From: Paraspadella gotoi
Lineage: Eukaryota; Animalia; Chaetognatha
DNA: 64,000 nt
NCBI GenBank assembly: GCA_051294375.1
Contig: CM119266.1
Location: forward strand, 20,099,657-20,163,656
Direction: 5' to 3'
Below the pieces are notes generated by a model. It made no database searches. It had not been told where the DNA came from and saw nothing but the letters and a program-made list of their open reading frames with translations. Below are positions 2,217 through 49,500 of the stretch, one piece after another; position 1 is the stretch's first letter, and every line of letters starts with the position of its first letter. Position numbers and translations under genes: made by a program.

Positions 2217-2958
2217 AAAATAAAGTTATTCACATGGAACGAGACCGATAGAACGCGATCTTGTCAGACCTGTATTTAGTTATTTTCAAGAATCACGTGT
2301 ATGGCAATGTATGTATTGGTTCCTATTATGACTACTATTGTTAATAAATTCGATTATTCATTCTTCTAAAACTTAGCTACGTAATTATGGATAAGGCTGA
2401 ATAACGGTAGACGCAACTTTAAAGTTTAAGACTATAACAAGCCTAAGAGTAAGACTAATAAGACTATTGGCTAATGGCTATGTCTGCTCAATAAACGATT
2501 GCCGTTGTGGGTCGACGACCCCCTCTCTCGGTCACTTCACGAGGCTCTTTGATTTGACTTTTGTTTTTAAAAGTTTAACTGCCAAAGGCGACGCAGGGAG
2601 CGAAGAAAAGATAGAATGTTTTGTACAATGTACATTTATAATATGTATTTCCAAATACTTTTATTATTAACAATTGAATTAGAATTAGAGATTGTTACCA
2701 CCACTATTTAGCTTCCACGTTGCCGGATATTAGAAATAGACAAAATATTCAAAATAGATTGGTTAAAAACAAGAAGTAATCAACATGGGTCATAGAAAAT
2801 AGACTCAACCAAAAAAATCTTAAAAGCATAAGGATCGTCGCAATCGCATAAGAAAAATCTGCATTAACGACAAATTTTGATACTAAAAAAAATAAAATTT
2901 GAGAAAAGAAAATTAATTTATAAATAGAAAGAAAATTATATTTTATAAATTATAAATC

Positions 2959-3060
2959 TTAGGAATTGTTTATTGTTTGCCAATACAACGATTTTTATTT
3001 ACATAGTACATGTTTCGACTCTGTTGATTCGAGTCTTCAAAAATGCTCTACACATTAATT

Positions 3061-3096
<36 letters not shown>

Positions 3097-3866
3097 AAGA
3101 GAGAGGAGAGAGAGTGGAACACCCAATGCCACCCCAACCGCACGGTGATTCCCCTGTCCCAACTCAACGGGTCAGGCGGAGGCCTCCCGGCAGGCAATGG
3201 ACGTCCGATACCTCTCCCGAACCTGTAGCAACTTGGCGTGACTCTCTGAACGCCAAGCGCCGCCCAAAACGACGGCTACAGGAGGAGGGAGAGGAGTCTG
3301 TATCTCCTGCACCAAAACAGGCAAGAACAGGCAACTGCCCACCTCACCGTCAGGTGAGAGGAGGGCCTTCGGCAGGCTTATCAGGCCAAAGAGATATTAG
3401 AGTGGCACTTGGTATTTTCCCAGCCGGGTCTTTACCTGACCCCATGATATCCCACTCTACAAGAATATCATCTCAGTCTATGACAAGCCAATGACCCGAT
3501 CATATCGTCAGCGTCCCACCTTTGTCCACCCGGGGGGGCCAGCTCATTTTGAGCTCTTTCTTCTCTTATATATATTTCACTTAACTATTAACTTATCTAT
3601 CCCTCACCACCTATTCCTCCATTTCATTTTTCATCATTATTACTTATTTAACTTTTGTTAATTCAAAATCTCAGCTTATTTCTAAGTTTTTCTAAATTAT
3701 TCTTTGTTGTACATTGTCAAATGTAATTATTTCTCTCTCTCTCTCTCTCTCTTTCACTTTTCACCATTTCAAAATTATCTTCTTCTCTGTTCTTACCTTC
3801 ACCTGTCCTCTCATCTGGCCACTGTCCTTTACTCAGCCCTTTGTTGAAACTCTCCCTCAATCTCTC

Positions 3867-3900
<34 letters not shown>

Positions 3901-4023
3901 ACTTAATGTGTAGAGCATTTTTGATAATGTTTTTCAAAGCTGATGAAGACTCGATCAACAGAGTCGAAACATGTACTATGTAAATAAAAATCGTTGTATT
4001 GGCAAACAATAAACAATTCCTAA
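2959..4023 (+). mobile_element. 5'-truncated Penelope-like element (PLE) remnant with inverted pseudo-LTR copy
   Basis: 2959-~3070 is the reverse complement of ~3890-4023, apart from a ~20-nt deletion that removes the CTGATGA box in the left copy. The right copy contains a minimal hammerhead motif typical of PLE pLTRs. Confidence 0.6.
3931..3984 (+). ncRNA. Minimal type I hammerhead ribozyme motif
   Basis: CTGATGA (3940-3946), stem II GACTC/GAGTC, GAAA (3966-3969), palindromic ACATGT stem III, GTA cleavage triplet (3973-3975), imperfect stem I TTTTCAAAG/CTATGTAAA. Confidence 0.7.
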
Positions 4024-4277
4024 TATTCACTTAGCAACGAATAGAGAGAAAATAATACAAATTATTAAAATCAAAGTTTCTTAAAAAAAGCGGAAAAAAA
4101 AACAAACAAAATTTTCATTGTCAAGCCCCTGTGAAAAAAAAAACGAAATAAAAACGCGATGTTGCGATAGCAAAATGATAACATGCACGAATGCGATTAT
4201 AATTTTATAAGTTCAATCCTATTTCAATTTTTTTTAATAAAAACGCAGAGAGAGAGAGAGAGAAAAAAAAAAGAAAT

Positions 4278-4421: not shown

Positions 4422-5341
4422 GTTTTTTTCCCTATGAATCGTGACTAGGGAAAAGAGAGAGGGAGAGAGACATGTAATTAAAAGAGGAAAGAGAGAGAGA
4501 AAGAAATATAAAAATAAAAGAGAGAAAATTGTTGTTTTGATAAAACGTAACAAAACATATTTAATAAGTGTCCTGACTCAATTTTAAGCACATCGATGAT
4601 GAGAAGCTGTATACAAATTTTCAGCTTCATACACCCAAATTTAATCATAAAAAAGTGCGATCTATAATTTGGAACGCCAACGACGACAACTTATGTCCCA
4701 CTTATGTGCAAAACCACAGCAATATCGCAAAGCGATTGCGACGATAAAAAATCTTCTGAGACGTATGATTGTGATTAATAATTGGGAAATCACTAAACAA
4801 ATTTAATTAAAGGTGAACAAAGTAATTAAAGTAAATTAAATTTAGAATTAGTACAGTAATTACTGAAAGTAAACCTGCAAATTTTTTGAATCATGAAATC
4901 GAAAATGGTGACAAAAGATTTTATGAATTTCTTTATTAATCATAGGTTAATCATAAGGAGATAATTAATGGCATAAATTGTGGAAAACGGATAGAATGAT
5001 TGGATAGTGGATGGATACTCTTATTGAGGGGCATTTACACTTTTTTACTTTTCGCCAACAAAAATCCCAAAAACGGTCACAAGACTTTCAGTAGTGACAG
5101 TCCATAAAGGGACAGTTTCAACTGCTCTCGATGTAATTGTTCACTACTACTGATTGATTTCTATCCCGCCTCGATTTATGATGGGGATCGCGGAATGAAG
5201 CACTAAATCCTGCCGCGGATCCCCCCAAAAATATCCTTGTAGTAAATTAAGGTTAAGATTAGGTTAAGGAATTTAGGAACAGAAATGGACCGCTTTTGGA
5301 TAAGAGAGCCCGAAAAAAAACATAAATTTGAAAGATGATGC

Positions 5342-6074
5342 TATGGCAACAGCCGGGTTGCCTGTGATGCCCATTGGGATGGGGCATCTCACTGTTGGCT
5401 TTGGGGCTTCCGACCCTCAGTGACGCCTCCAGTCACTGGCGCGGTTACCCAGGACGGTCTCCGCTTTGCCACACGCAGAGGGAAGTCATTAGGACTGTGG
5501 ATGGAACACTACGCCTGGGATGGTGTGTTCCCCCTCTGAGCCAATGGATTTGGCTGCCGGATGGTGGACGTGAGGCGGTGTGAATATACCACCACAGGAT
5601 CCCGGGCCAAGCATCACTCATGGTTCCTCAGCCTGAGAGGTGTCTGACAAGACTGTTACCATAGTGGAGGAGAGAGAGCGCGAGTTGTGGGGGCATAGGG
5701 TTTGTCGTAGCGTACCCAGGGGCATAGGCGTTTGTCGTAGCGTACCGAAGTCGGCAGGGCATAGGCGTTTGTCGTAGTGTACCCTGAGAAGGTTGCGTGT
5801 TCGATAGTAGGGCTCACCACTTATGGCAACAGCCGGGTTGCCTGTGATGCCCATTGGGATGGGGCATCTCACTGTTGGCTTTGGGGGCTTCCGACCCTCA
5901 GTGAGCCTCCAGTCACTGGCGCGGTTACCCTAGGACGGTCTCGCTTTGCCAACGCAGAGGGAAGTCATTAGGACTGTGGATGGAAACCTACGCCTGGGAT
6001 GGTGTGTTCCCCTCTGAGCCAATGGATTTGGCTGACGGATGGTGGACGTGAGGCGGTGTGAATATACCGCCACA
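5342..6074 (-). mobile_element. TRIM-type non-autonomous LTR retroelement, family A (full length)
   Basis: Two ~255-bp direct repeats (5342-5596, 5822-6074); TSD ATGC (5338-5341, 6075-6078); minus-strand LTR ends TGTGG...CCATA; PBS TGGTGAGCCC 2 nt after the 5' LTR; ~225-bp non-coding interior with three copies of GGGCATAGGCGTTTGTCGTAGCGTACC. Confidence 0.9.
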
Positions 6075-6085
6075 ATGCTTCATAT

Positions 6086-9000: not shown

Positions 9001-12000
9001 ATATACACTTCCATTATCCATATGATATCACCATTTGGTTTGTCTTTATTCAAAGGAGCACATGATGTTAATTTTGAACACCATTTTAAAGAATTTGGCC
9101 TGCGTTTTTATTGTATTACTAGTTGCGTGTCTGTCTGTCTGTAAGACACTTGTGTGTCTGTCGGTCTGTCTGTAAGTCGGTCTTTCCGTCGGTATGTCCC
9201 ACTTACGTTTTAAATGCTTCTAACTCTGGTAAATTTTTATTAATTAAGTTCATATTTGATATGAATGTAAGGTACCATAAAACATTTTTTGTTTATCTAT
9301 CATGCTTGTGCTTGTCAGGGATATTCGGTTATTTTCATTTCCAATTCCATAAACATAAAATAATTATAAGACTTACCAACATCTGGATATTCGGTGATAA
9401 GAGAATTAAACTCAGCGGGAGAACCTTCCAACTCGGTAATATTTTTTGTCACTATAACTGAAATAAAGAATGGAGGTATTGACAATTGAGGGTTTAACTT
9501 TCAACGACTGCATTTATAAGAAAATATGTATAATTTTTTAAATTTAAATTTATTTTAATTTATAAAATAAAAAAAAAGTGGATCCACGGATTGTTTGAAT
9601 AGAACCAGTTGTTTAATAATAATAATTAATATAACAATAATAATAATAATATTTAATAATTGAGATATATTTACGCGTTCTTTCTGCTCAGGATGAATGC
9701 CGAGTAAAAATGGCTTTGTGGCGGTCATAATAGATGAAATAACAAGTCGGGGAATAATAGAATGTACAATGTAAGAGGAAAATATTAAGCCTTGACTCTT
9801 TCTATCTCTTTTTAAACGTTCCCTCAATATCCCTCAATATTTTTTAATTTCAATTTAAAACGGACATGTTTCGGCTTGTAAATTTTTAGGCTTTCATCGG
9901 CGTTAACAGTTTGTGAGTGATTTTTGTGAGTGAGTTATTTTTCGTTTAAAATTTTATGAAATGTGTTTTGCCCGGAAGAAACTCTGTTTTTACGAGTTTC
10001 TATTATAAACAAGTTAAAAAAGAACCATTACAGTGTAGCTCCGCTCTTGTACGGTATAAAGTTATTAAAACTTAAAAAGTTCTAAATCAAAAAATCTATA
10101 ATTAAATAATAAAAGTTATATACTAAAAAATTTGAGAATTTAAGCAAAAAAAATCTTGTACATACTACATAGTAAACTGATAAGTATATATTGTTCACGT
10201 CACCCTATTCACAACATGATTATATGTTTATTGTTTAACATATTCTTTTTAAATTATACAAATATGATATATAATCCATTGATTTACCAGTGTGATATCG
10301 AAATCCATAGGGAATAGCCGCCATAGTCATGGTGCCGAAGACAACCACTGACACAACTCTCGCGCGAAATATGGTGCAGTAGTTTTTAGCCAGATGTGGG
10401 TAGCAAACTGATACGAAACTGGAATAAAAAAAATATAGTTATCGTCAGTCGTCATATTATCAAGTTTAAGCAAACAACGTGGGATCTGCCTAAGATAATT
10501 TAAATACATAGAATTAGCTAAGCAGATCATGTATCATGATAAACGTTAAAATATATTTTCGATTCATAATAAAAGTGAAAATAAGGAAATGATTTAAGTA
10601 CATGGTGACAATTTTATAAGCGCCGGTAGAAATATGCTGTCATTTGCAAACCAGTGGTTATTTCATTGATTTTTAAAATTAGTTGAGTAGAACATATTAA
10701 AGTCATTTATGTGTTTAAATTTTATATTGATCAGTTAAGATATGCCTTGGCAATGAGTGGAGAAAGTTGGCTTGTAAAATCGGGTTTCATTTTCTAACTC
10801 ACTTTTTTAGATTCAATTTTTTTTCTTACCTTCAGTAAGTTTTCTGAAGAAATTTAAAATAAAATAATATTAATATTATTATCTTCTGAAAGCCCTTTCA
10901 AATCTAAAGAGAATGACATACTTGCAAATACTGTAGTATAAAATTTAACCGGCCCAGCTTTAATTTAATTAGGATACTCAAAAACAAGACATATTTCCAA
11001 AAATCAATAGCTGGAGGGTAAATTTAAGATTTTTATCAATTGTGATTGGCTATCCTAAATCTCTTAAATTCAGGCTCTTTCATGATACTTATATAAATAA
11101 TAATATTTTATGTTATAATAATTTAATCAGGTCATATATTTTCAAAAAAGATTTGAAATTTTAGATAATTAACTTTTGACTCTCTTAATTGAACCAAGGC
11201 TGGGCAGCTTAATTTTTATGTTAGAGCTTTCATAAGTATATCATTCTTTTCATTTTTTTAAGGGCTTTCTGAGGATATTAATATTGTTAATATCTTAATA
11301 AATACTTTGTTTAAAAAAGAGCTAAAAGTTGAAAAAAAAATTGAAATTAAAAACAGTGAGTTAGAAAATGAAACCCGATTTTACAAGCCAACTTTCTCCA
11401 CTCATTGCCAAGGCATATCTTAACTGATCAATATAAAATTTGAACACATAAATACTTTAATATGTTCTACTTAACTAATTTTTAAAATCAATGAAATAAC
11501 CACTGGTTTGCAAATGACAGCGTATTTTTACCGGCGCTTGTAAAATTGTCACCATGTATATTATCAATTGCAGTACCCAATGCACACTTCCGGCCTAGTA
11601 CTCGGGTTCACCCCGCATTGATCCCTCATTCTTTGAGTGAAGCCGCAATTAGGTTACAAGTTTGGTAGCAGATTAAGGTTAAATCTTAGGATTACAATTA
11701 GTTTCAGGGTTTATGGTACAGAAATTGGGGCGTTTTTGGAAGAAAAGAGCCAATGATTTAATGATTAGAGATGATCTAAATAATTTACCGACAAGATATA
11801 TACTAAAATAGGGGGTTAAGATTTTACCTCTTTCATTCTCAAGGAAAATGTTTACAATATCTTACCGTTCGATTCCAATGAAAACCGTGAGCCATGATGT
11901 AATGCAGACTGAAGCGTTCATGACGTAATGACTGCAAAATAAAAATGAAAATTAATTAGTCAAGTAATACAATCACTTTTGTTTTTTTATGTCATAAATA

Positions 12001-14905: not shown

Positions 14906-16020
14906 ATGAATAAAAGTGACTCCGCGCATTTTTCCGCCACGGATTCCGCAACGTGGGGCGGGGGGGGGGATTGTGGGTTGGAGTGAGGATAGGCGTTGTA
15001 GAGACTTTGGTTAGGGTCTAGGCGTGTAGAGGATAGAGTGGACGGAACCTTTCACGGGTAGAAGTGGAAGACCGGAATTGAAAATTGAAAATCCCTCCTT
15101 CAAAGTTCAATAAGTTTTCCACTTTCACTTGCATATAAAAAAAATTGTCGCGGTTTGGAAAAGTCGGTTAATTTCAATGTCAAATATATTTCTTAACCGG
15201 TAAATAGGTTTTAATATATAATATGACCTCCCTAGGACTGAATGAAAATATTATTTTTAACAGCATAAAATTATTTTAGGCATACAAATACTTCCAAAAG
15301 AGATCGTCTCCAAATGTTTTCACCTCTTTTTGATCAAGAGGTCTACTCAATTATTCATTAATTCAATAACATAATAATAATAATAATAATCAATAATAAT
15401 ATAATTCAATACTCAACTACTCATATTATTTTAAACCAGGCTTTAGTTATTGCTGCATAATGTAATGATGCATTATCTTTTACTTTAACAAAATATTTGA
15501 TTTTTTTTTTACTTGTTTAATACTTGGTTCTGATAATACATATACAAATAAAAATAATAACATTGCTCACAGAAAGGTTACCCAGAGCCTTATAACTTTT
15601 ATCGATACTTTACAATATAAAGAAAATATTTTGGAGCATTTACAGCATCAATATATTTTTAATACAGCTCTTTTTTTGACATATAAATTAAGATTCTATC
15701 GTAATGCAATAACCATTTGGCATGAGACTGGGAAAAGGCAAGAATTTTTAATAATAAAAAGTAATAAAAAAGAACCGGAAATTAATAAATAAAAAATGTA
15801 GATATAAAAAAGATAAAAAAGAAAGAAGCATTTTTTTTTAACAATTCATTTTCTTTTGCATAGAACTCTTGTATTTTTTGTCATACATAAATGGGACAAG
15901 CTCATATGAATTACAAGAGGCCAAAGTTTCTCAATATCTAAATTTTATTTTTCGATTCTTACATTAAAATGCCGAAAAATAGCTGGAAAATAACCGCGAC
16001 AATTTTTTCTATCATGATAC

Positions 16021-16673
16021 TATGGTGGACTAAAACCCACCAACCGTTCATGCAGGCGCATTTGGTGCCAGAGGCAGTCATTCGCCTCCCAACCCAAAGG
16101 TCCGGGGTTCTAGCCCGGTGGTCGTCTGGCAGTTAAGAGGGACGGGGCGCTTAACCCGCCTGTAACATGGTGTTACAGCCTGATCCGAAGCTCAGGGACT
16201 GATATTGAACGGTTCTGTCATTAACACATATCAATAATTACTGTCTCTTCTTTGGTGAGCCCGACTTCCGAACACAACAGCAACAACAACACTTTCAGGC
16301 GACATGCCTCAACCTGGCGATGCACTTTCGCCCCCACAACACATCAGGCGACATGCTCAACTTGGTGACGCACTTTCCACCAACAACAACAATTCACTGA
16401 AGAGACGCAACGACATCTTCCTACGGGAGGGGGGATGTATGGTGGACTAAAACCCACCAACCGTTCATCAGCGGCCATTGGTGCCAGAGGCAAGTCATTC
16501 GCCTCCCAACCCAAAGGTCCGGGGTTCTAGCCCGGTGGTCGTCTGGCAGTTAAGAGGGACGGGGCACTTAACCCGCCTGTAACATGGTGTTACAGCCTGA
16601 TCCAAAGCTCAGGGACTGCTTATATTGAACGGTTTCTTGTCATTAACACATATCAATAATTACTGTCTCTTCA
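16021..16673 (+). mobile_element. TRIM-type non-autonomous LTR retroelement, family B, with a tRNA-like module in each LTR
   Basis: LTRs 16021-16251 and 16436-16673 (3' LTR TGTATGG...TCTTCA); PBS TGGTGAGCCCGAC at 16253; polypurine tract GGGAGGGGGGA 16425-16435; TSD ATAC (16017-16020, 16674-16677); interior with two imperfect repeats TCAGGCGACATGC..CAAC(C/T)TGG..GCACTTTC. Confidence 0.92.
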
Positions 16674-19400
16674 ATACTAAGATAAAAAATATTGATGGGC
16701 TGTTGGAATTCGATCTCCAAAACTAAAAATTTGCCAAAACTTTTTTATTTTTACCACAGTTGCACAATACACAAATATACTTGCAATGTCAATGTTATGG
16801 CACAAGTCGATTTAGAAGACAAAGGAAAAAAAAAATTTTAAATAATCGTTTTTAATAAAAGATAAATGATGCCCGGCGTTATATATTTTTTTTTAATTTT
16901 TGGTTGGAAAGCATTGATTCTGATTCTCCAAAAGGCTTTTAACTGAAAGGAATGAAACGTGACAAATGGAAAAAAAATTATGAAAAGACAAGAATAAAAA
17001 AAAAACATTAACCGAAGACAGGAAATCATTACAAGAGTAATACTCAGTAAGGAATAAACTGTTTGGGCAGAAAAAGGCTGCATTTTGGGGAAGAAAGAGA
17101 AGTAAAGAGAGGAAATTGAAGGGAAAAGACATCTTTGTCTTTGATTGGTGATATTGAATTGAATTCCTTCTATCCTCATTAATGATTTTATTGAATATTG
17201 TATTCTTTATAAACAATTTCGCCTGTTTATAGTTTTATATAGATTAGTAATTTGTAACAGCATTTGAAATTAGCAGCGAAGCTACAAAAATTTATGGTTT
17301 TTTCTCATAAAAAAATCAAATTGCAGCCCGGAAATTGATCCCGCTTACTTTTCCGCGCCCGCCCATTTCGGTTTGCGTGACTTCTCCGAAGGAAAAGAGA
17401 ATTTTTGACTTTTCGGCGCGAAATTTTCCATTGTTCTCTCCATGTTAACTCCAAGGTGTGCTTTTTACAACTTGCTGCGATTTTTGCATTGCCTTTCTTT
17501 CCTCATCCTGCCCTTCAGAGTTAAACTTAAAGAATGTGGGTAGAATCGTCCATCTCTCCGTATTTTGTTGTTATTTTTAGTTGCGCCGCGCTGCTACTCG
17601 TCACTTGACGGTCGGTCGATCAGTCGGTCCCACTTACAGTAAAAATTCTTATAATTCGGGTAATACTGAAGTCACGTGATTATCTTATAAAGCGATCACA
17701 CAACGCAGATTCAATACGGCTTAAACTCGGTTGCTAGCTAGACTGCGAAAAAAAATCGTAGAAAGAATAAAAGACGAAATCCGATGCAGGGCATATCGAA
17801 CGCTCACGGTAGTCACTTGATCACCCTAAAATACTCGTGAAAGAAAGTTACTGCGGCGCAATACACATTGAAATGACCGGTCACAATAACTATTAAAGTT
17901 GTGCAGTGACACAGTTGAATACAGCATTTCGACTCGTAATATGATGTAATATGGACTCAGAATATGTTATTGTCATTCTCAAAATTTAACGAATTGAAAG
18001 TACTTTTAGTCCAAAAATAGAATATAACTATCTAGATTTAAAATAATACTATTTCGATCCCCGATGTTTTAAATTTTTTAATTTTTTTTAATTTAGTCGT
18101 CTGACCTAAACGCATCGACTCTTTGACACAATGCACATTTTACATAAATTTGGATTATTCAATATTCATTCTTTCTTTCTTTCCTCCCAAGAGTTGTTTT
18201 TATATTTAACCGATGCTGCTTGAAAATTGGAACCAATTAGTCGGTTGTCAAATTAGCAAGTCGGGGTTTGTTTCATTCAAGGGAAGGAAGGCGAATTGTT
18301 AAAAAAAGAAAAGATGAGCTCATTTTTCACGTTGAATTTGTTCTTTATTCTGGTTGTCATCTGAGATAGCTTTTTTTTTAAATTTTAATCCTCTACCACT
18401 CAATTTATTTCGCAAAATTCAATTATATTGTTCCAGATAAAGGGATAATTAAGATTAATGGTATTAAAAGAAAAACCGATTGGTTCGAAAAAATCGTCGA
18501 CCCTATTTCTGTTTTACACAACAGTAAATCATATATTATGACTTCAAAAATTGACTACTCCAAGTTTAATCACTTACCCGACTTGGATGTGCTATACAAT
18601 GGTGAGATGAATCGATTCAGAGGTCCAAAAACTTTTAACTGGCTCGTTAAATAAAAATAGTGAAGTTAAAATCCTTTAAAAATTTCAGCACTAGAAATTA
18701 GATTTTTTTTTTTCAGTGCTTCATAAGGGGAAACAATTTTTTTTTAAAGATATAATCACAAATATATTGTATTTCCTTAGTGGCTTATCATCACAATTTA
18801 AATTTAATATTAAAACAGTACGTAAAGTCAGAATGTAGAAAATTAGTCTTGTCCAATGTCCATTTCGGAAAGTTTTCTCGAAAAAATAAATCTTCTCTTT
18901 GAAAGAAAGAAAAAAATGGGCGCGGGTTGAAAGGAGCGGCGCCGTATAGACGGCGTTGTCGTCGTCGTCGTCGTCGTCGCTCTCCTCATCCTCTTCCATC
19001 GCGTCATTTTTTCTCCTCGTCGACGCATTCATTCAGAGGCGTGTATAGTATACACTGGCCTGTGGTGCTGATAAAAAATATATATATCATAAACGACAAC
19101 AACTCGGCAACAACAACAACGATCGAAAAGCTGAGGAGCAAGCGATGCAGGTAGGAGAATAGGAGGAGGAAGCGCTTGCTCATGAGGATGAGGACCAAGG
19201 AGCAAGCGAGGAAGGAGTGAAGGGAAAAATGACATTCAACTCTTGAAGCGAACTGAGGAGCGTTTGGGACTAAAACTTTAAAATGATTGATTGATTCCCC
19301 CTTATCACCCCACTCGCTCCGCGTTCCCCTACCGTGTGGACACGATGGATCGCGTGCGAAAACACTTGTCAGTGACGGCTCTGATAGCGTTTATGATATA

Positions 19401-21277: not shown

Positions 21278-24200
21278 TTAGTCATTCCCTCGACTCCCCA
21301 ATGAGTCTATTGTCTGCATCCACTCAATGAGCGACTTGGTCAGCTGAAAGTCAGCTTCGACCAGTCTTTCCGTGATATCGAAATGGTCGGTTCCGCCAAC
21401 ATCCTCCAACGAGGCGTCGAAGCCGTGTCGTCGACACTCGGAAGCAAACGCGGCGCTTTGACGCCGGAATTCGGGCGAATCGTTTTCGGCGACGGCGACA
21501 CGAATTAAGAAAGACGTCGAGTTCGGTGCAACCGCGGCCACGCCCTCGGCATCGGTGGACTCGGTCTTTAAAAAAAAATATTTGAGTTTATTGACTTATG
21601 TTCCGTTAATGATTATAATATTAATAGTAATAAACTCATCACTTTTTGTATTGGAAGGTTTTGAATGAGTAGTAGGGGGCTGTTGCGCCTGGCCTCCGCG
21701 TCATTCATCTTGACGGCAATGTTGACGGAAGTTCGAAGAAGCGGAAGAAGATTGAAAACCCCGCTGATGGGAAATACTCCTTTAGGGTTGTAAGGCGAAA
21801 AAAATTAAGAATAAAATGAAAATAATGACCGTCCTAGGTAACCGCGCCAGTGACAGGTGGCGTCACTGGGGGTCATTGAGGGTCTCCAGAAAAATGTAAA
21901 AATGAAAAGGATAAAATAGAAGGAAGTATTTTTTGGACAATTTAATTTCCTTTTGCATAGAACTCTTGTATTTTTTGTCGTACACTTCATTGATAGGGAA
22001 GCCAGGTTCACTGGGAGTGAATAAATAAGACTGTGAGAGAGTCTTGATTGAAAGCTTGCAGAAACCTGCTATGTTATTATATTGTAGGTGTGATGGAGGC
22101 CTTAAACCACCAAAGCCTGTCCAAAGTCAGGGACAAGATAGCTTATTTATTAAATGAATGGATAATTTTTATATTGGTTGTACCAATTTCATAAAATTTT
22201 ATTTTATTTTCATTAAAATTAATTAAAATGCGGATAAATAGCTGGAAAGTAACCGCGACAATTTTATTTTCCATCATGGTAAGTACCGAAAAATGGCTTG
22301 AAAGTTCCTCCATAGTAATACTTAGCGAGACTTTCAACAACACTGACCTCTAAATGTCGACTCTTGCTGTGAGTCGAGACCGAAGCACTGCCATTCGGTC
22401 AACATGAGCATAGAGACAAGCTGACCACCGGCAGAATGACCCACAGCCACTGCCCAGGTCCCAGACTTCGCAGCCTCTCGCAAAACAATAGCAAAACCTC
22501 GCCTGACTTGATTCACGATTTCGTCCAGACTAACCTGAGGTAGAAAATATAACCAAAAGGGAATAAGTAAATTATAGAATCCTTCGAGTCCTTTAATTAG
22601 TTTTAGATAAACTAATAGAAAAAATATTTAGAGAGAGAGAGAGAGACTTAAAAGAGTAGAAAGAGACGCTAGAGTCTAGACAAAAAATAAAAGAAAATGT
22701 GACAGAAACAAAGTATTGGAAAAGGGCAGAAAAAGAAGAGTTTGTGGTGGTCTACCATCACAAGTTATAAGTTACTAGTGTCATGTTGAAAGTAAAAATT
22801 TCCCCCGAAACTGTTACTTCACTTTTCATATATACTCAATATAAAAATCGAGGAAGAAAGATGATAGAAAGCCTGTCTGAAGTCAGGAGCAAGATAGCTA
22901 ATTTATTAAATGAATAGATAATTTTTATATTGGTTGTATCAATTTCATACAAAGCCTTGTGTTTTCTGATTTGAATGATTTAGCTCTTAGTAAAGCAGAA
23001 ATAAAAACATAGGTATGGGGTGCAACTGGAAGAAAGGACTAAAAAAAGATTTGACCACATTTTTTATAACATCTTTCGTGGCGCCGCGAGTAATCGCGAA
23101 ATATCACTATGAGACACTTGGGGGTCGGTCAGTCGGTATGTTTGTCCGTTAATTGGTCCCTCTTACGTTCAAACTGCTTATATCTCCTTCAGTCGGGTGC
23201 TTTTTTGTCATTTTTGTGGAGATCCTCGCATCTAAGATACTATTAGTAGTATCTAGTAGTACTTGCACTAACTTTTTTTTTTAATCGTAAAACGCAGGTT
23301 GAATGCTTATTGGTGGTCACGTGATCACCCGGAAATATCCGTGATAAGACAGTCACATTTGAATTTGTTCTTTTTTTAAAACCTAAGATATATTAATAAT
23401 TTTGCGAATATTTTTAGTATAATTCGTGCTTAGCGGTTAATCGAGTTAAGTCTAACCAAAGTGACAAGTTCTTCACAACCAGCTATTAAAAAAATATATA
23501 TATATAATGAGAATTTTGGATTAGCTAAAACGAAAAATCGGACCTTGGGAGCCAAGTCGTACCCAAGCGCCACAAACCGGAAACCGTGGGCGTTTACGGA
23601 GTCGGCGAAAAAGCCAGATGACGCCACGTCCAATGCCTGCCAATAACCCCCGTGGACGTAAACGCAAAAAGGTCGAGAAGGTTTTCCCGAAGTGGTTGGA
23701 GGAGGTTCGAAAACGTGAAGCGACGTTTCATCTGGGAAATGTAATGTAATTGTATTACAATTACTAATTGTAAGAGTGAACCGAATTTTAATTTATTGTT
23801 TCGAGTTGATTAAAAGACATTTTTAGAGAGAATTAAAATAGTAATAATAAAAAGAAATTTAAAAAAAAAGTTTTTTAGTTTTATGGAAAAAAAAAACTTA
23901 GGGGAGAGAATAAGTTAAGATTTGGAGGAGCATCTGGCGCAATCATTTTCTAGTCGCCTATCACTTTTTGAAGCTCGCAATCTCTGCATAGTGAATATAT
24001 CATTTGCAATTTTATCGATTGTGCCACAGGCGGCACGTCGACCTCTTCCCTTTGGTGATGAAAGGCGAGGGCAACGAATTACAAAGCGAGCATTGACGTG
24101 ACAAAAAAAAAAGGTCGTGACGTGGCACAAAAAACGCGGATCGCACTCGAGTAAAAAAAAAAGCAGATCGCACGCAAGTCACTACAATTCCATAATAATC

Positions 24201-25382
24201 GCCACCGGCGCTACTTCAGCACGACCGACATTTTTAAACTTCGAAAATTTTTGTTTTCTCTTATACCGTTTTTAAAATTAGAGGTGGATATAAAAAACTT
24301 CGGTGAATGAAGGCCGCCGACGATGAGTCACCGAGTAAGGGCAAATGGGTCATACAAAGTAACATTACGTTCAAACTGAGAGCAAAGTAGAGACACACAC
24401 CCCTTCGAGTTGTCCAGCATGAAAAAATACGTAAGAGACTAAAAATAAAAATCGTAAAATTAAAGGAGGAAAAAAAAGTCGCTGTTCAATAAAATATTGA
24501 ATTTTTGAGCACAAAAGGATCAGCAAAGAAGAGTCATCGAACGAAACGCCATCGCCAGGCGGAAAAACATACTTTAGCCCGGCGCCTATTTTTGCTTCTC
24601 TATTATAAAACGAAGTCAGCTTAAGAAGCGAAATCTCCTCTCAACGTAAATAAAATTCCATCTTTTTAAATTGATATTTTCGCCACAAAAGTGAAAATGT
24701 TAGAAAAGTTAACTTGTGGCGGTATATTCACACCGCCTCACATCCACCATCCTTCAGCCAAATCCATTGGCTCAGAGGGGGAACACACCAACTCAGGCGT
24801 AGTGTTCCATCCACAGTCCTAACGACTTCCCTCTGCGTTGGCAAAGCGAGACCGTCCTAGGGTAACCGCGCCAGTGACTGGAGGCGTCACTGAGGGTCAG
24901 AAGCCCCCAAAGCCAACAGTGAGATGCCCCATCCCAATGGGCATCACAGGCAACCCGGCTGTTGCCATAAACTCCTCTTTAAATTGTACAAAACCGTGAA
25001 TATCACTAAGTTGTGAAGAAAAAACCGTGATCGGGGAAAATTTTCTCCAATAAACGAGGTTTGATTAAGGCACGAAGAAAAGCATTGAATATTAAGAATC
25101 TTTTTTCGTATCAATCATTAAATGATCAAAAGCACCTAAATTGAAAGTATCTCGCTAAAGTAATTGAAAAGATCTATCCATACCTGATTCTCCGTACTTC
25201 ACCACGCTGTCTGGATGACGTAATTCGCACATTTTTGCCAACGTGTTTATATGATTTCCGACAATAGATTCTGGGGAGAGCCTCTTGCACCACTTAGAAG
25301 GTGACATTTGAAGTTCAAAGTCTTCGTCAAACTCGGTCGTTTCCGCGTCAGAAGTGTGGGCGCCTTCGGTTTTTTCCGCCAT
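21278..25382 (-). CDS. AFMID: Kynurenine formamidase (arylformamidase), alpha/beta hydrolase
   Basis: Exons 25382-25184, 23731-23544, 22534-22348, 21779-21643, 21565-21278. Motifs SPSKWCKR, VHGGYWQ, GYDLAP, GHSAGG, ISGVFNL, AENDSPEF and DHFDI. Confidence 0.88.
21827..21884 (+). mobile_element. Internal fragment of the family A LTR
   Basis: GACCGTCCTAGGTAACCGCGCCAGTGAC..GGCGTCACTG matches the solo LTR at 24716-24969. Confidence 0.75.
21950..22195 (+). repeat. ~250-bp interspersed, sometimes tandem, repeat family (core GCCTGTCCAAAGTCAGGG(A/G)CAAGATAGCTTATTTATTAAATGAATGGATA...TTGTACCAATTTCATA)
   Basis: Other copies at ~12095-12225, ~22860-22950, ~46170-46340 (-), ~48238-48733 (two in tandem) and ~56382-56458 (-). 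Confidence 0.8.
24716..24969 (+). mobile_element. Solo LTR of TRIM family A in AFMID intron 1
   Basis: Single LTR TGTGGCGG...TTGCCATA flanked by TSD AACT on both sides. Confidence 0.9.
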
Positions 25383-37346: not shown

Positions 37347-37596
37347 TATAGCAACAGCTGGGTTGCCTGTGATTCCCATTGGGATGAGGCATCTCACTGT
37401 TGGCTTTTGGGGCTTCCGTCCCTGAGTGTGGCCGCCTGTCACTGGCGCGGTTACCCTAGGAGGGTCTCGCTTTGACAACGCAGAAGGAAATCGTTAGGAC
37501 TCGTGGATGGAACGTAACGCTCGGGATGGTTCGTTCCCCCTCTGATCCAAAAGGAGTGGCTGAATGAAGGTGAGGCGGTGTGAATATACCGCCGTA
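37347..37596 (-). mobile_element. Older, diverged solo LTR of TRIM family A
   Basis: Aligns over its full length with 5342-5596, with more substitutions; flanks AATT/AACT (near-TSD). Confidence 0.85.
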
Positions 37597-43500: not shown

Positions 43501-46500
43501 TTCCACGATCTGAGGCTCGTCGAGGTCCACCACATCTGCGGATTTGTGGGGGGGGGTGGGTATGGGTGAGGGACGACCGGAATCTTTTAACCATTTTATC
43601 ATTTCGAATTTTTATTTTATTTTTCGCGAATAAAAAAGTTAATAAAAAAAAAAATGGGGAAAAAAATAAGAAAAGTAAAATAAAAACATGAAAAGCCCCT
43701 CAAAATTCGTACCTTCTGCTTGGAAATAGTTACAAAAACTCTTCCCCTGGGGAAAAAATTTTGATTGCTCCGCGCTCACACGTAAGTACGGGAGTACGGT
43801 ACGCGCATCCAACTCTTCCTCTCTCATTTGTTCATCTTGCTCGGGAAGATGCAACGTTTAGCATTTTTTTAAAATATCGCGGTTTTTCTCCTGAACCTAA
43901 CAGGCATAATTCACAATGTTGGTGAAGCTTCGACGTCTTTGCGTGCGTCACATCACATCTGTCATATTACTGTCACAAAAGGAGCGTACTGGTGTCGTCG
44001 ACTCCTTTCCTCATTGGCCGAGTCTGTCTCCGGCGCCTGGCCTCATTTCGGCCAGCCGGCCGCAAAGGGTTTTTCCCCTTGATTCCATTAAATCTAATTT
44101 CCTCTGCAACCGACGAAGAAAAAAAAGGAAAGGAAAGGAAATTCATATAGTTTGAATATATAATATGGTAGTAATATCAGGGCCGGGTAAAACGTAAAAC
44201 GTGGGCCCTAAGATAAAAAGAAAAGATGGAGAGGAAACGAGTTGAAACCCGAACAAATAAAAAGGTAATGAAAGGAAGGAAAGGAAAAAGAGAAAGGAAA
44301 AAAGTTGAGAGAGAAAAGAAAGGATAAACATTTTTGTTCCTTCTTCAATATAATTCAATAAATTAATGTAATAAATTCTTCCGACGCGCGAGTCTTATTT
44401 CCTTTCCCTTCGCCATCATGCATTTTAATCTCACACCGAAGAGATTCAAAGGATTAATTCCACTTGTCGCTCGCAATCATCGTTAGAGTTCTTTCGTCAC
44501 CATCGTCGTCTGTGTTGACGCACGATAGAAAGACAGACGATGGAAAGACAGACGATAGAAAGACAGAAAGTTAGTACGTTGTCAATGAACGTCGCGATAC
44601 AGAACAGAAAGATCTTATTTGTCTTTCTTAGATTTGATGGAATTTGGATTTTGGAGACTAAAAAATGGAAGCCAAAAAATATACAATAATACTCTCTCTC
44701 TCTCTCTCCCTCTCTCTGGAATCTAAATGGGACGCTCTCGGAAATTATCGCGATTTATTTAAAATTAATTTTTTCATTCATTCATTCATTCATTCATTCA
44801 TTCATTCATTCATTCATTTATCCATTCATTCATTCATTTTATGTTTCTCTCTCTGTCTGCGATCTCCATGTCTAACCGAGAGCTGGGTATTTGTTGAAGA
44901 GGTTGGCAACGAACGCCAAATTGAGTTTATAGTTTCCGTTGACGATGTCGTTGGGGCTGACGAAGGATTTGCAACCGATCTTGTCGGCCTCTTCCAGCAC
45001 ACCCGTCGCCCGCTGCTTGGGGTCCGAGCTCTGAGGATGAGGAAAACGTCTTTTAGTTCTTTATCTTACCCTTTCCAGACATTAGTCAATTGACTGTTCT
45101 AAAATCATAGACCAAGCTAATGTTAAAAAAAACAATCGCTAACCTCAAACCCCTATAACCCTAACCACCCCTAACCCTAAATCACCCCTATATCCCCCGA
45201 GGAAAATTTAGGAGTCGAGCGTTAGCCCATATGAACTATTTAACACGGCTTACCCTCGTGGGCGAATGTGAAATTAATCTCCCTCGGGTACGAATTCGAG
45301 AGAATCTTCAAAACCTACTGACCCTGAGTGGATCGAGAGTGATCCTCTTGTTTGGGTCCGTTTGATCACGAGGTTGAATCTGGTGGAGGAGATGAGCGTA
45401 AGCTTCTGAATCTTTGATGTCGTCGGTGAAGTTTTTGATCTCACGTTGAACCCCGGCCCGTTCCAAATGATAATTCACCCACCTTAATGATTAAAAAGGG
45501 GAAACAAATATATACTATATTATATATTTAATACATCGTAATATATTTCTTTAAAAATTAAGTCTAATATAGACTATATTATAGTTAAAGAAGTAATCTT
45601 GCAATTTTTTTTTCGTCCAATCAAGTCGGGGCTTATTCTTTTTCTGTGGAAAAAAATGGCAAAACAATCTTTCCATCTTACTCTTCCTCCTTTTGCTGCT
45701 TTTACAGCTGCTCTTCTTCTTCCTCCATTCTTCTTTCTTTTTCACTTTTATATTCAAGTATCGAAAACGCGGGATTTAGTCAATGACACATTTTTCAGTA
45801 ACGCTTTTCCCATCTTAAGCTTATTACGACGTAATTTCTACAGACGAAGTCTTTGTCAAAGTGGTATCTTATTGAATCGCGTCCTGACGCGAATAAAAAA
45901 AAAAACAAATCACGTAATTCTAATTTTAATTCTTTCCTATAAAAATCGAGAATTTATCCAGTCTGTTTTGTCATTAGGTGATGTTACAATAAATAGGTTA
46001 CACTCACCTGAGGAGAATTGCCTCGGGTCCCAACTTCAAGAGGTCTTCCTGCGTCTCACCCTCCCGCAACAGCGCCATGAGTTCTGGGTGATGCATGAGG
46101 TCGATCTCGCTTAGTAGGCCAATCTGTGGGCAGCACGAACGGTTAGGTCGATAGGGACATCAATATTTCACGAAATTGGTACAACCAATATTAAAATTAT
46201 CCAATATCCATTCATTTAATAAATAAGCTATCTTGCCCCTGACTTTGGACAGGCGATGGTGGGTTACAAGATAATGACATAGCTGGACCCTTCAAGCTTT
46301 CAATCAAGACTCTCTCACAGTCTAGTTTATTCACTCTCAATGTGCGAAGGTGGCAGCTAACCTAACGGAACCTTCTCGTACATATGTATTTGTGTTTTAT
46401 TCATAATTTAGTTTTAATTATAAAAGCAATCCCGTTCCAGGAACTAAGAGTCAAAACGTTTTTGTCAGCATTTATCAAAATCTTTTCCATTTTTCCGATG

Positions 46501-49500
46501 GAGAAAAAATGCTTTCGAAAGCAAGAATTCTTGAGCAAATCTGAAACGAACGAACCCCTTTTAAGGTACAAAACTTTATTCAGTCGAGCGGCCATCTTTC
46601 ACCCATTTTTCAATGGCTTTTCTTTCACTGTCAGCGTCTTTCATTCTTACACTCGGTTTCACCTACTTACAGTCAATTTTCAGACGTTCTTTCTCGTTCT
46701 TACAAAAAATTATTGGAAAGAAAAGGAGGAAAAAATGAAATGACGTCATGCCACTCATCCCTGAAGAAAGAAAAAAAGCTTTTCAGTGGATAGTGTCACA
46801 AACTGAGAACTCGTAACTCAATAACTTTTACAAGAAAAAGAAAATTCTCGGGGTCAAATTGACCCGAATTTTAAGTAACTTCCGGTTAACAGAAAAAAAA
46901 AGAATTTCAAAAATCCTTCATATGAATATTCAATATGAAACAACCTTTTATTATTAAAAGCAGAGCGTAATGGAAACGTTACGTCAAATATGATGTTTTT
47001 AAAAACCGAAAGGTGACGTTTCAGGCGTTTCCCTTCGGCGTTCTCTGACGCGAAAAAATTTGGCTTAGGCTAAGAATCGATTTGGCAAAGAAACGCGTCT
47101 CTAATGGCGACCGAAATCTGTTGGTTTTTCGTTAGTAGGATTTTTTTGTTAAAAAACGCGGGGGGAAAAAAAAAGATGTCGACAAACGAGAAGGTTCGGA
47201 CTAAATTACCTCACCTAATATATTAGACTCCCCATGAAAATCATCACTATTCTCTCTTTTCCGAAACTGGTCAATTTTTTTATCACCATTCGCAAAATCG
47301 ATAAAAAGTAATGAATAAATAAATCCAATTCAACTTCCCATAAAATCGATTTATTATTACGTGACTTCGTTATTTCAATTGATTATAAATCGCTTTAAAT
47401 GATTAATACAAAGCAAACTTTTGGTCAGGATCTCAGACTTTTACAAGATAGACTCTGGATTAACTGTTGCTCTTTTATTATCTTTTTCAATTCGTATTTT
47501 TGTCGTTAAGAAGTATTTGATTGATCAACTGATTGGACAGACTTTATGTTGTTCCCCATCTAATGGTACAAAACTGTCAGGATAAGTTAACTTTGATTCG
47601 TGACAGTGAGTAAGCATTTTTTTTTAATGATTCTTTTGGTTAAATTTAAATTTTTAATCAGTTTTTTCCTTTTTGTATGTTTTACTGGCTTTACACCCTA
47701 ATACAAATTAAGAAATAACTTGTATTTTTTTTAAATGAATAGCTATGGTAAATTAGTTACGGTAAAATCTTTAATAACTCTTACCCTGATGACTTGCCAC
47801 AAAAGGCCGAGGACAAGATGAGGCTTCTTCTCTTGAATGTCGGTGGCGCCGATGTTGACGACGTGGCATCCGATGGCCGACGCCGAGTTCAGCGCCAAAT
47901 TCAGGTTCTCCGTCACCTATATGAACATCCGACACAAATGAAACAAACAAAAAACAAGATGGCGTCAGTCGACAAGTTTAAGTCTAAAAATTAAAATAGT
48001 TTGAAAAATAAAACCTGGAAGACGGAGAGTTGGCTGGTTCCTTTTCGCCGGTTGATGGATCGTTCGTCGATTGTCTCCGGAACTGCGCGTGAAAAATAAT
48101 ATTTGTAAATAATAATATTTATATTTATATAAAGGAAATGGAAAAAAAATTATGGAAATTAATGGGAAGAAATCTGGGATCAGGGAAAGATGGAAGGATA
48201 GGGGGGAGAGAGAGGGAGAGAGAGATCATAAATAATTACATTGATTGTACAAATTTCATAAACATTCTTTGATAGGGAGGCCAGGTACTCTGGGAGTGAA
48301 TAAACGAGACTGTGAGTGAATCTTGATTGAAAAATTCCAGGGACCTGCTATGTCATTATCTTGTAAGAGTGATGGAGGCCTTAAAGCACCAAAGCCTGTC
48401 CAAAGTCAGGGGCAAGATAGCTTATTTATTAAATGAATGGATAGTAAATAGTAAATTGTACCAATTTCATAACGGTTAGCTCCTTGTATTTTGATGCTAT
48501 GAGGTGTTCGTTATAGCAATCTCCGAAAATAATACTTGAGGGAGTGGTTCTTTGATACAATTGAAGTTAATAAAAACTAGACTTGAAAAGAGTCTTGATT
48601 TACAGAGTTATTATCCTATGGGATCGAGGGATGGAGGGATGGAGGCCTTAACCAAGCACAGCTTGTCCAAAGTCAGGGGCAAGAGAGCTTATTAACTGAA
48701 CGAATGGATATAATTATATGATACCAATTTCATACCTGCCATGTTGATGAGTTTGCAGAGCAAAACTCCGTCAACGCATTTGTCGTAAAGATCATTTTTC
48801 TCTTTCGTTTCGTTAATGACATAAAATTTTTGGAACTCGGGATCCGATCCGAAGCTATATAAACAAAAAAAAGGACAGAATTTCAGTTAGGGTTTTTTTT
48901 TTCACTTTTGGAACATTTTCATTTTTTAGCGAATATATATAATTATACAAAATGCTCTAGAACTTTAAATTCTTCGACTCGCTTGGAGTTGATCCAGTTG
49001 GAGAATCCGATGACCTCCTCGTCGCGGACGGTGTGTTTGGCCGTCTCCATGAAGGTCTTGGTGGCTTCGACGCCCGTGGCCGTCGCGATCTTCCCATGAA
49101 GGAAGCCTTGCTTCTCCGAGTAGAGTTTGAGATAGAGAGACTTGAACTCGTTCATGTCCAACTTTCCGTCTCTGCATCCCTCGGTCTCGAATTCGCTGAT
49201 CAACTTGCGTACCTGAGCGGAAATCCAACACTTTGTACTACGAACGGCGGGAAAAATGGGGAAACGTTAAAGACCCCCTAGAGGTCTACCTATATCGTTG
49301 GCTGACTTAAGCTGATTAGTAAGCTGTTTAATTGGTTCGATCTTCGGGTCGTCGCGTGTATATTTTTTATCTTACGGCAACGCGACTTCTTTGCGAGAAA
49401 AGAGCGAATTGGTCTCGAAAAGAAAACAAAAAAAAAGGGCGAATGGCAACGTTATTTGTAATGAGAAGGTCGGGTTAGGCGTGTTTATGACGCCAAACAA

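What the first reader, a model, noticed from the sequence alone, without database searches (positions are those of the whole stretch)
5787..5819. Two unrelated TRIM families share an extended, bipartite tRNA-Trp primer-binding site
Seen: the + strand at 5787-5819 reads AGAAGGTTGCGTGTTCGA-TA-GTAGGGCTCACCA. The family B PBS (16253-16275), reverse-complemented, reads GTGTTCG-GAA-GTCGGGCTCACCA. Known (from memory): metazoan tRNA-Trp ends ...AGAAGGTTGCGTGTTCRAATCACGTCGGGGTCACCA. Both elements match about 13 nt at the CCA end, skip the same 3 nt, then resume matching the T-loop; family A continues through the variable loop into the anticodon stem, well past the canonical 18-nt PBS limit set by m1A58. 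The LTRs of the two families show no similarity, so the shared gap suggests a conserved primer-annealing architecture imposed by a common autonomous partner (4-bp TSDs suggest Ty3/gypsy).
Basis: partly seen in the sequence, partly recalled or inferred. Interest (0 to 1): 0.7.

Follow-up and report, generated by a model that had tools for sequence, protein, structure and literature searches.

The report
Split tRNA-Trp primer site, two TRIMs
Two small non-coding jumping genes in this animal genome carry a primer site that matches tryptophan tRNA in two pieces with the same 3-base shortfall; the tRNA likely docks on both pieces, as shown for yeast Ty1, and longer matches of this kind turn out to be common in related elements.

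Summary
TRIM A (5342-6074, - strand) and TRIM B (16021-16673, +) both match the 3' end of a tRNA-Trp ending GTCGGGCTCA (found as L006, a proxy; the host gene was not obtainable), fall 3 nt short across tRNA positions 63-58, then resume at G57: to position 41 in A, 51 in B. A's site showed no variant at 1% or more in four runs. It is not special to this pair: among 28 pattern-selected tRNA-Trp primer sites from other eukaryote-like contigs, 21 run on without a gap and one (L052/L110), in front of a CsRn1-type CHCC gag, has the same 3-nt-short spacing. Best reading: CsRn1-clade Ty3/gypsy dependants with a Ty1-like two-part primer site that loops out m1A58, born from a captured over-copied primer; pairing is predicted, not shown. 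No autonomous partner was found in this genome, and the gap is not obligatory in the clade. New variant of a known kind; moderate interest.

The parts
5342..6074 (-). TRIM family A, full copy (733 bp), non-coding
   Evidence: LTR pair 247 identities, 4 mismatches, 6 gap columns; TSD ATGC at 5338-5341 and 6075-6078
5822..6074 (-). A 5' LTR, ends TGT...ATA
   Evidence: loose ends of many contigs stop at 5821/6074-6076
5342..5596 (-). A 3' LTR
5807..5819 (-). A primer site, acceptor segment (tRNA-Trp 76-64, mismatch at 66 = base 5809)
   Evidence: alignment to L006 tRNA
5804..5806 (-). A 3-nt spacer opposite six tRNA bases 63-58
5787..5803 (-). A second segment, complementary to tRNA-Trp 57-41 (T-loop, T-stem 5' strand, variable loop, end of anticodon stem)
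   Evidence: no variant listed at 1% or more in runs X1, X5, X9, X10
5689..5786 (-). Three tandem ~30-nt repeats in A's internal region
   Evidence: D-arm-like 6-mer in them not significant
16021..16673 (+). TRIM family B, full copy (653 bp), Helenus-like
   Evidence: LTR pair 223 identities, 6 mismatches, 7 gap columns; TSD ATAC at 16017-16020 and 16674-16677
16253..16265 (+). B primer site, acceptor segment (tRNA-Trp 76-64, 13 of 13)
16266..16268 (+). B 3-nt spacer
16269..16275 (+). B second segment, complementary to tRNA-Trp 57-51
16280..16284 (+). Possible third B segment (tRNA 50-46) after a 4-nt insertion; 5 nt in CA-rich sequence, may be chance
   Evidence: alignment and duplex model
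16425..16435 (+). B polypurine tract
   Evidence: sequence
16056..16127 (+). tRNA-like (box A / GGTTC box B) sequence inside B's 5' LTR
   Evidence: gapless alignment to tRNAs; tRNA profile E 5.3e-05 at 16076-16119
16473..16545 (+). tRNA-like sequence inside B's 3' LTR
   Evidence: tRNA profile E 3.3e-06 at 16485-16536, best hit in the window
24715..24969 (+). Solo LTR of family A with TSD AACT
37347..37593 (-). Older solo LTR of family A (83-84% identical)

Best explanation
Both elements are small non-coding LTR retrotransposons (TRIMs) whose primer site matches tRNA-Trp in two segments; they are likely mobilised by CsRn1-clade Ty3/gypsy elements, and the tRNA is predicted to anneal on both segments with its bases 63-58, including the likely methylated A58, looped out. 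Shown: the two-part complementarity, its offset, its constancy in family A, its recurrence before a CHCC gag elsewhere. Inferred: (1) the extension began as an over-extended copy of the primer tRNA captured by an ancestral element; (2) it is now passed on through the element's RNA, not re-copied from tRNA each cycle (as shown for Ty1/Ty3), which is why the gap persists; (3) the second segment is kept because it helps open the T-arm and hold or package the primer, as Ty1's extra segments do; it matters more for A (weak 10-nt core) than for B.
For: Match to a real tRNA-Trp. Predicted duplex energy goes from -21.2 to -52.4 kcal/mol in A and -27.1 to -35.1 in B when the second segment is added; the model loops out 63-59 (A) or 63-58 (B). 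No variant at 1% or more across 5776-5829 in four runs; zero-difference contigs in X9 and in organism B's X10; a sister subfamily keeps 5791-5829 while the sequence next to it is replaced. Same -3 spacing with a third spacer (TTT) in L052/L110, upstream of a gag with CX2HX9CX3C and DUF7041; its second segment follows the A57/G70 tRNA type (L085) while A and B follow the G57/C70 type (L006) (one comparison only). L040 (gag+RT) keeps the T-loop match across a non-matching 7-nt spacer. Origin signs among 28 families: 17 match exactly 3 or more nt beyond the searched pattern, two stop at position 27 just before G26, A58>G is the commonest substitution (4 of 21 colinear families, and B). Precedent: Ty1 two-segment PBS with small internal loop, PBS not inherited from tRNA in Ty1/Ty3 (PMC5371799 passages), extra segments needed for packaging and initiation (PMC4974528 passages); m1A58 cannot Watson-Crick pair (PMC13191261 section 9).
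Against: No pairing experiment; energies ignore modifications and competing folds (in the A model the acceptor segment is paired within the element RNA). Constancy in A may only reflect recent expansion. B's 7-nt segment is weak alone and was not checked in other B copies. 21 of 28 families have no gap, so looping out A58 is not needed in the clade. Helenus-2_SyJa/SyUm show 13 nt and no colinear T-loop match, GyRex2 a shorter match. The host tRNA and an autonomous partner in this genome were not obtained. A and B internal regions do not align significantly overall (262 of 1000 shuffles), nor does either to the L052 leader.
Confidence: 0.55

Rival explanations
1. Neutral relic: a captured over-copied primer tRNA that is slowly eroding; only the 10-13-nt core primes, and A and B share the gap because both descend from one gapped autonomous lineage.
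For: Extensions end at scattered positions (27 to 51) across 28 families; B's is down to 7 nt; 13-nt-only TRIMs exist; secondary PBS copies in L010, L017, L023, L029, L120 lack the T-loop match; A and B share an 11-mer in the internal region (10 of 2000 shuffles).
Against: Spacer bases differ among A, B and L052 while both flanks are exact; the A sister subfamily and organism B keep the segment while adjacent sequence turns over.
Confidence: 0.3
2. Primer over-extension acceptor: the second segment catches plus-strand DNA that was copied past m1A58, as the primer over-extension sequence does in lentiviruses and spumaviruses.
For: Known mechanism at the same place, directly 3' of the PBS (PMC13191261 section 10); fits the 21 ungapped families well.
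Against: In A and B such a product would carry tRNA 63-58 and repair the gap (and A's position-66 mismatch) in progeny, yet no such variant was listed at 1% or more; Ty1/Ty3 do not inherit the PBS from tRNA.
Confidence: 0.08
3. The gap was favoured because it destroys the antisense RNA polymerase III box B that an intact tRNA copy would create next to the LTR.
For: Both A and B lose the C61-equivalent base of GTTCRANNC (sequence).
Against: 21 of 28 families keep an intact box B; no transcription data.
Confidence: 0.04
4. A variant host tRNA or tRNA fragment lacking 3 nt gives a plain contiguous match.
For: Host tRNA set not seen.
Against: A and B differ in the spacer and at position 66, so no one RNA fits both; a contiguous partner would have no T-stem; of the 10 L006 tRNAs only Trp gives more than 5 contiguous nt (10 and 13).
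Confidence: 0.03

Closest known systems
Yeast Ty1 bipartite/extended PBS
   Same: Short acceptor-stem segment plus nearby 3' segments complementary to the T (and D) arm, separated by a small internal loop; PBS not re-templated from tRNA (PMC5371799, PMC4974528, passages).
   Different: Ty1 is copia-type, uses tRNAi-Met, segments lie in gag and are proven functional; here tRNA-Trp, gypsy-dependent TRIMs, near-colinear match, untested.
CsRn1/Kabuki-clade Ty3/gypsy elements (CsRn1, PwRn1, AgCR, Boudicca)
   Same: tRNA-Trp PBS of about 12 nt including the GAGCCC variant, 4-bp TSD, TGT...ATA ends (A) (PMC2582038 section 6; PMC3630058 passages).
   Different: A and B are non-coding; the texts read describe only the short PBS, not a T-arm continuation (their PBS figure is an image I could not see).
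Helenus TRIMs (Kojima 2024, PMC10886601)
   Same: B: under 1 kb, tRNA-like sequence with GGTTC in both LTRs, PBS, PPT, 4-bp TSD, Trp primer occurs in wasp Helenus.
   Different: B's box A is degenerate; Helenus-2_SyJa's PBS stops at 13 nt; A has no tRNA-like LTR hit.
Primer over-extension sequence of lentiviruses/spumaviruses; HIV PAS; ASLV U5-T-arm pairing with tRNA-Trp
   Same: Extra complementarity to the primer's T-arm (PMC13191261 sections 9-10).
   Different: Those keep a full 18-nt PBS; PAS and the ASLV site lie upstream in U5; here the core is 10-13 nt and the match is gapped.
Ty3 and Drosophila Gypsy 5'-3' bipartite PBS
   Same: Second site pairs with T-arm/anticodon-stem part of the primer (PMC1635307 abstract and section 19).
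   Different: Second site is thousands of bases away at the 3' end, and is dispensable for cDNA synthesis in Gypsy.

Membership tests
TRIM | Two LTRs, total under 1 kb, no coding capacity | tested here: met
   A 733 bp, B 653 bp; no ORF of 120 aa or more inside either
TRIM | PBS next to 5' LTR | tested here: met
   2 nt after the LTR in both
TRIM | PPT before 3' LTR | tested here: inconclusive
   Present in B (16425-16435); absent in this A copy, whose 5611-5628 stretch is rare among contigs (depth about 200 vs 45,860 at 5668 in X1)
TRIM | Target-site duplication | tested here: met
   4 bp for A, B and solo A LTR
CsRn1-clade dependence | tRNA-Trp PBS and 4-bp TSD | tested here: met
CsRn1-clade dependence | LTR ends TGT...ACA/AAA/ATA | tested here: inconclusive
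   A: TGT...ATA met; B: 3' LTR TGT...TCA, 5' LTR lacks the first TG
CsRn1-clade dependence | Autonomous partner with CHCC gag in the same genome | not testable with these tools
   No genome held; CHCC gag seen only in other hosts (L052, L023)
Helenus (element B) | tRNA-derived sequence in both LTRs with GGTTC box B | tested here: met
   Top two hits of a 7-tRNA profile over 64 kb, E 3.3e-06 and 5.3e-05, next 0.16; Rfam did not report it at E 10
Helenus (element B) | Box A with TRGCY and YGG | tested here: inconclusive
   T8 and G10 align, but the motif reads TGGTG...AGG
Helenus (element A) | tRNA-derived sequence in LTRs | tested here: not met
   No hit in A LTRs at E 10
Ty1-type extended PBS | Extra complementarity to T arm 3' of the core | tested here: met
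Ty1-type extended PBS | D-arm segment | tested here: inconclusive
   Sister subfamily only: hand-scored match reached by 165-425 of 20,000 random 30-mers; not significant in the window copy
Ty1-type extended PBS | Needed for primer packaging or initiation | not testable with these tools
   needs experiment

The most novel reading that the evidence does not exclude
CsRn1-clade retrotransposons of animals use a previously unreported multi-part primer site that unzips most of tRNA-Trp (acceptor, T-arm, variable loop and, in an A subfamily, the D-arm while skipping the anticodon arm); one sublineage has fixed a 3-versus-6 internal loop that parks m1A58 and acts as the cis signal by which unrelated TRIMs, one of them Pol III-driven, hijack the same machinery.
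Probability: 0.3. Interest if true: 0.62.

Novelty: new variant of a known kind. Interest (0 to 1): 0.4.

Why it matters
PBS annotation normally stops at 18 nt. If the second segment pairs, a large animal gypsy clade primes like yeast Ty1, giving a natural series (ungapped, -1, -3, mismatched spacers) to test what m1A58 does in retrotransposon priming and whether the PBS is inherited from RNA or from tRNA outside yeast. The -3 spacing is also a usable tag for finding the unknown autonomous partner of TRIMs whose LTRs give no clue. B extends Helenus-type TRIMs to another host. If it is a relic, it is an ordinary footprint of primer over-copying.

Tried and rejected
No genome is held for the window, so host tRNA genes and partners could not be searched. 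ARAGORN finds no tRNA in the window; Rfam finds nothing meaningful at A or B. Viral contigs: 3 chance matches, then 0; L052 gag found no relative there. Innexin searches did not place the host below 'animal'. No RNA holder listed for element A; expression not assessed. Supplements of PMC6563192, PMC3212995, PMC8220671 held no Trp PBS strings, so no unbiased survey was possible; Friant 1996 not held. Apparent likeness of B's leader to L052's was not significant (rank 3 of 29, 8 of 200 shuffles). D-arm boxes in the window's A repeats were not significant. LTR A against the reverse complement of LTR B scored 25 (2 of 300 shuffles), not followed. Assembly error as cause of A's gap was rejected (zero-difference contigs); not tested for B. 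Earlier-findings look-ups by place, sequence and first word set were empty.

Full report
OBSERVATION. The window comes from an animal (innexin at 59217-60623); no genome is held. Element A spans 5342-6074 on the - strand: LTRs of 253 and 255 bp ending TGT...ATA, a 225-bp internal part, TSD ATGC; solo LTRs lie at 24715-24969 (TSD AACT) and 37347-37593. Element B spans 16021-16673 on the + strand with TSD ATAC and a purine tract at 16425-16435; it occurs once in the window. The LTRs of A and B do not align better than shuffles in the same orientation.

THE PRIMER. It is a proxy, not the host gene. Numbered from the 3' end, A matches 76-67, mismatches 66, matches 65-64, has three bases opposite 63-58, then matches 57-41 (18 nt exact counting A58; 0 of 20,000 shuffles). 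B matches 76-64, has three bases opposite 63-58, then 57-51, and perhaps 50-46 after a 4-nt insertion. B's 7-mer alone is weak (262 and 816 of 20,000 under two nulls) but has p about 2e-4 at A's register. The spacers differ, so only the net offset is shared. Of the 10 L006 tRNAs only Trp gives more than 5 contiguous bases.

OTHER COPIES. Contigs of four runs laid on A show a high-copy family (summed depth 45,860 inside vs about 30 on the flank in X1; not a copy number). On 5776-5829, with 131, 32, 15 and 2 records laid from X1, X5, X9, X10, no substitution or indel was listed at 1% or more (differences near contig ends are not listed, and single low-depth contigs differ at up to 8 places). A sister subfamily (13, 5, 3 and 1 records) shares 5791-5829 but continues with a different sequence ending CGGTGCGCAGC, which resembles the tRNA D-arm with the anticodon arm skipped; hand-scored, that match is reached by 165-425 of 20,000 random 30-mers, a second form by 1423-2958: suggestive only. 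B copies were not tested.

ELSEWHERE. Most look like chance matches in GC-rich DNA or bacterial tRNAs. I kept by eye 41 loci (39 from this scan, L005 and L007), which fall into 28 families by LTR end: 21 colinear with the tRNA, 4 one base short, 1 three bases short (L052/L110), 2 longer. 17 of 28 match exactly 3 or more bases beyond the pattern; two stop at position 27; among the 21 colinear families substitutions fall at 58 (4, all to G, as in B), 60 (2), 62 (2), 63 (1). Of 15 ORFs from 9 of these families scanned with Pfam, 8 families gave retrotransposon-type domains: L052 has a gag with CX2HX9CX3C and DUF7041, L023 a full element (LTR pair, CHCC, PR, RT, IN) with an ungapped match to position 45, L040 gag plus RT with a non-matching spacer, L005/L123 BEL/Pao domains 7-11 kb downstream; L020 gave NADAR only. 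Because the pattern demanded the T-loop match, the share of Trp-primed elements with an extension cannot be estimated. Unselected examples are mixed: Calliphora CsRn1_Cv1 shows TGAACA one base short of register (supplement passage); Helenus-2_SyJa and SyUm stop at 13 nt; five secondary PBS copies lack the T-loop match.

MECHANISM. Shown: two-part complementarity, its constancy in A, recurrence of the spacing before a CHCC gag. Predicted: adding the second segment lowers the duplex energy from -21.2 to -52.4 (A) and -27.1 to -35.1 kcal/mol (B), with 63-59/58 unpaired; m1A58 cannot form a Watson-Crick pair (PMC13191261 section 9; that host tRNA-Trp carries it is assumed). Inferred: the extension arose by capture of plus-strand DNA copied past A58 (minor read-through products are documented for HIV, section 10; that G26 and A58 are modified RT obstacles in tRNA-Trp is recalled). 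A gap could not persist if each cycle re-copied 18 nt of tRNA; in Ty1 and Ty3 the PBS is not inherited from the tRNA (PMC5371799 passages), which fits. I put current functional pairing at 0.55, a neutral relic at 0.30, an over-extension acceptor at 0.08, others lower.

WHAT THE ELEMENTS ARE. Trp PBS with the GAGCCC variant, 4-bp TSD and TGT...ATA ends are described for CsRn1-like elements (PMC2582038 section 6; PMC3630058 passages). B's LTRs align without gaps to tRNAs (anticodon position CCC) and are the two best hits of a profile built from 7 L006 tRNAs over the window (E 3.3e-06, 5.3e-05; next 0.16), which meets the main Helenus criterion (PMC10886601, parts 1-4 of 6, supplement passages and part 10); A has no such hit.

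KNOWN AND NEW. Split primer sites are established for Ty1, Ty3 (PMC3681743 passages) and Drosophila Gypsy (PMC1635307 abstract and section 19), and T-arm contacts for HIV and ASLV (PMC8599865 passages, did not use the term). Nine searches showed no paper describing a T-arm extension or this gap in CsRn1-type elements or TRIMs; the library lacks most subscription papers, I did not see the original CsRn1, Boudicca or Anopheles lineage papers, and the PBS alignment of PMC2582038 (Additional file 1) is an image that may already show it. PMC3286476, PMC12471100 and PMC3587641 were seen as passages. Two earlier scan notes report comparable long primer copies in other genomes (unchecked).

VERDICT. 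Real feature, correctly read in outline; a gapped variant of a widespread, apparently under-reported extended tRNA-Trp primer site. New variant of a known kind; interest 0.40.

Noticed in passing
window 16056-16127 and 16473-16545: Both LTRs of B hold a tRNA-like sequence (anticodon position CCC, GGTTC box B): B looks like a Helenus-type, possibly Pol III-driven TRIM.
   Followed up: yes
runs X1, X5, X9, X10, loose ends before 5791: Sister subfamily of A with a D-arm-like sequence 3 nt from the variable-loop match, skipping the anticodon arm; present also in organism B.
   Followed up: partly
L020 (match at 3841-3866), L119: 50-nt antisense tRNA-Trp copy ending just before G26; in L020 followed by a 571-aa ORF with a NADAR domain rather than gag-pol.
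   Followed up: partly
L010, L017, L023, L029 near their matches: Tandem second Trp PBS 44-126 nt downstream of the first, mostly with a duplicated LTR tail.
   Followed up: no
L005 / L123: 39-nt tRNA-Trp match upstream of BEL/Pao-type pol fragments on a contig of a bacterial MAG (likely eukaryotic contamination); link between the two not established.
   Followed up: partly
L006:83-1701: Cluster of 10 eukaryote-type tRNA genes in 1.6 kb inside a Pseudomonadota MAG, probably contamination.
   Followed up: no
L048: Site with the same A66-type acceptor match as family A and a one-base-short spacer; hints at an A66 tRNA-Trp isodecoder in some hosts.
   Followed up: no
window 5597-5630: This A copy has no purine tract before its 3' LTR and this stretch is rare among contigs; most copies likely differ here.
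   Followed up: partly
window 10599-11558, 2955-4027, 7116-7361/14628-14906: Long inverted-repeat pairs resembling MITE/foldback elements; another dispersed repeat family at 21986-22200, 46162-46342, 48265-48472.
   Followed up: no
window 59217-60623: Single-exon innexin with only 53% best identity over half its length in the protein search.
   Followed up: partly
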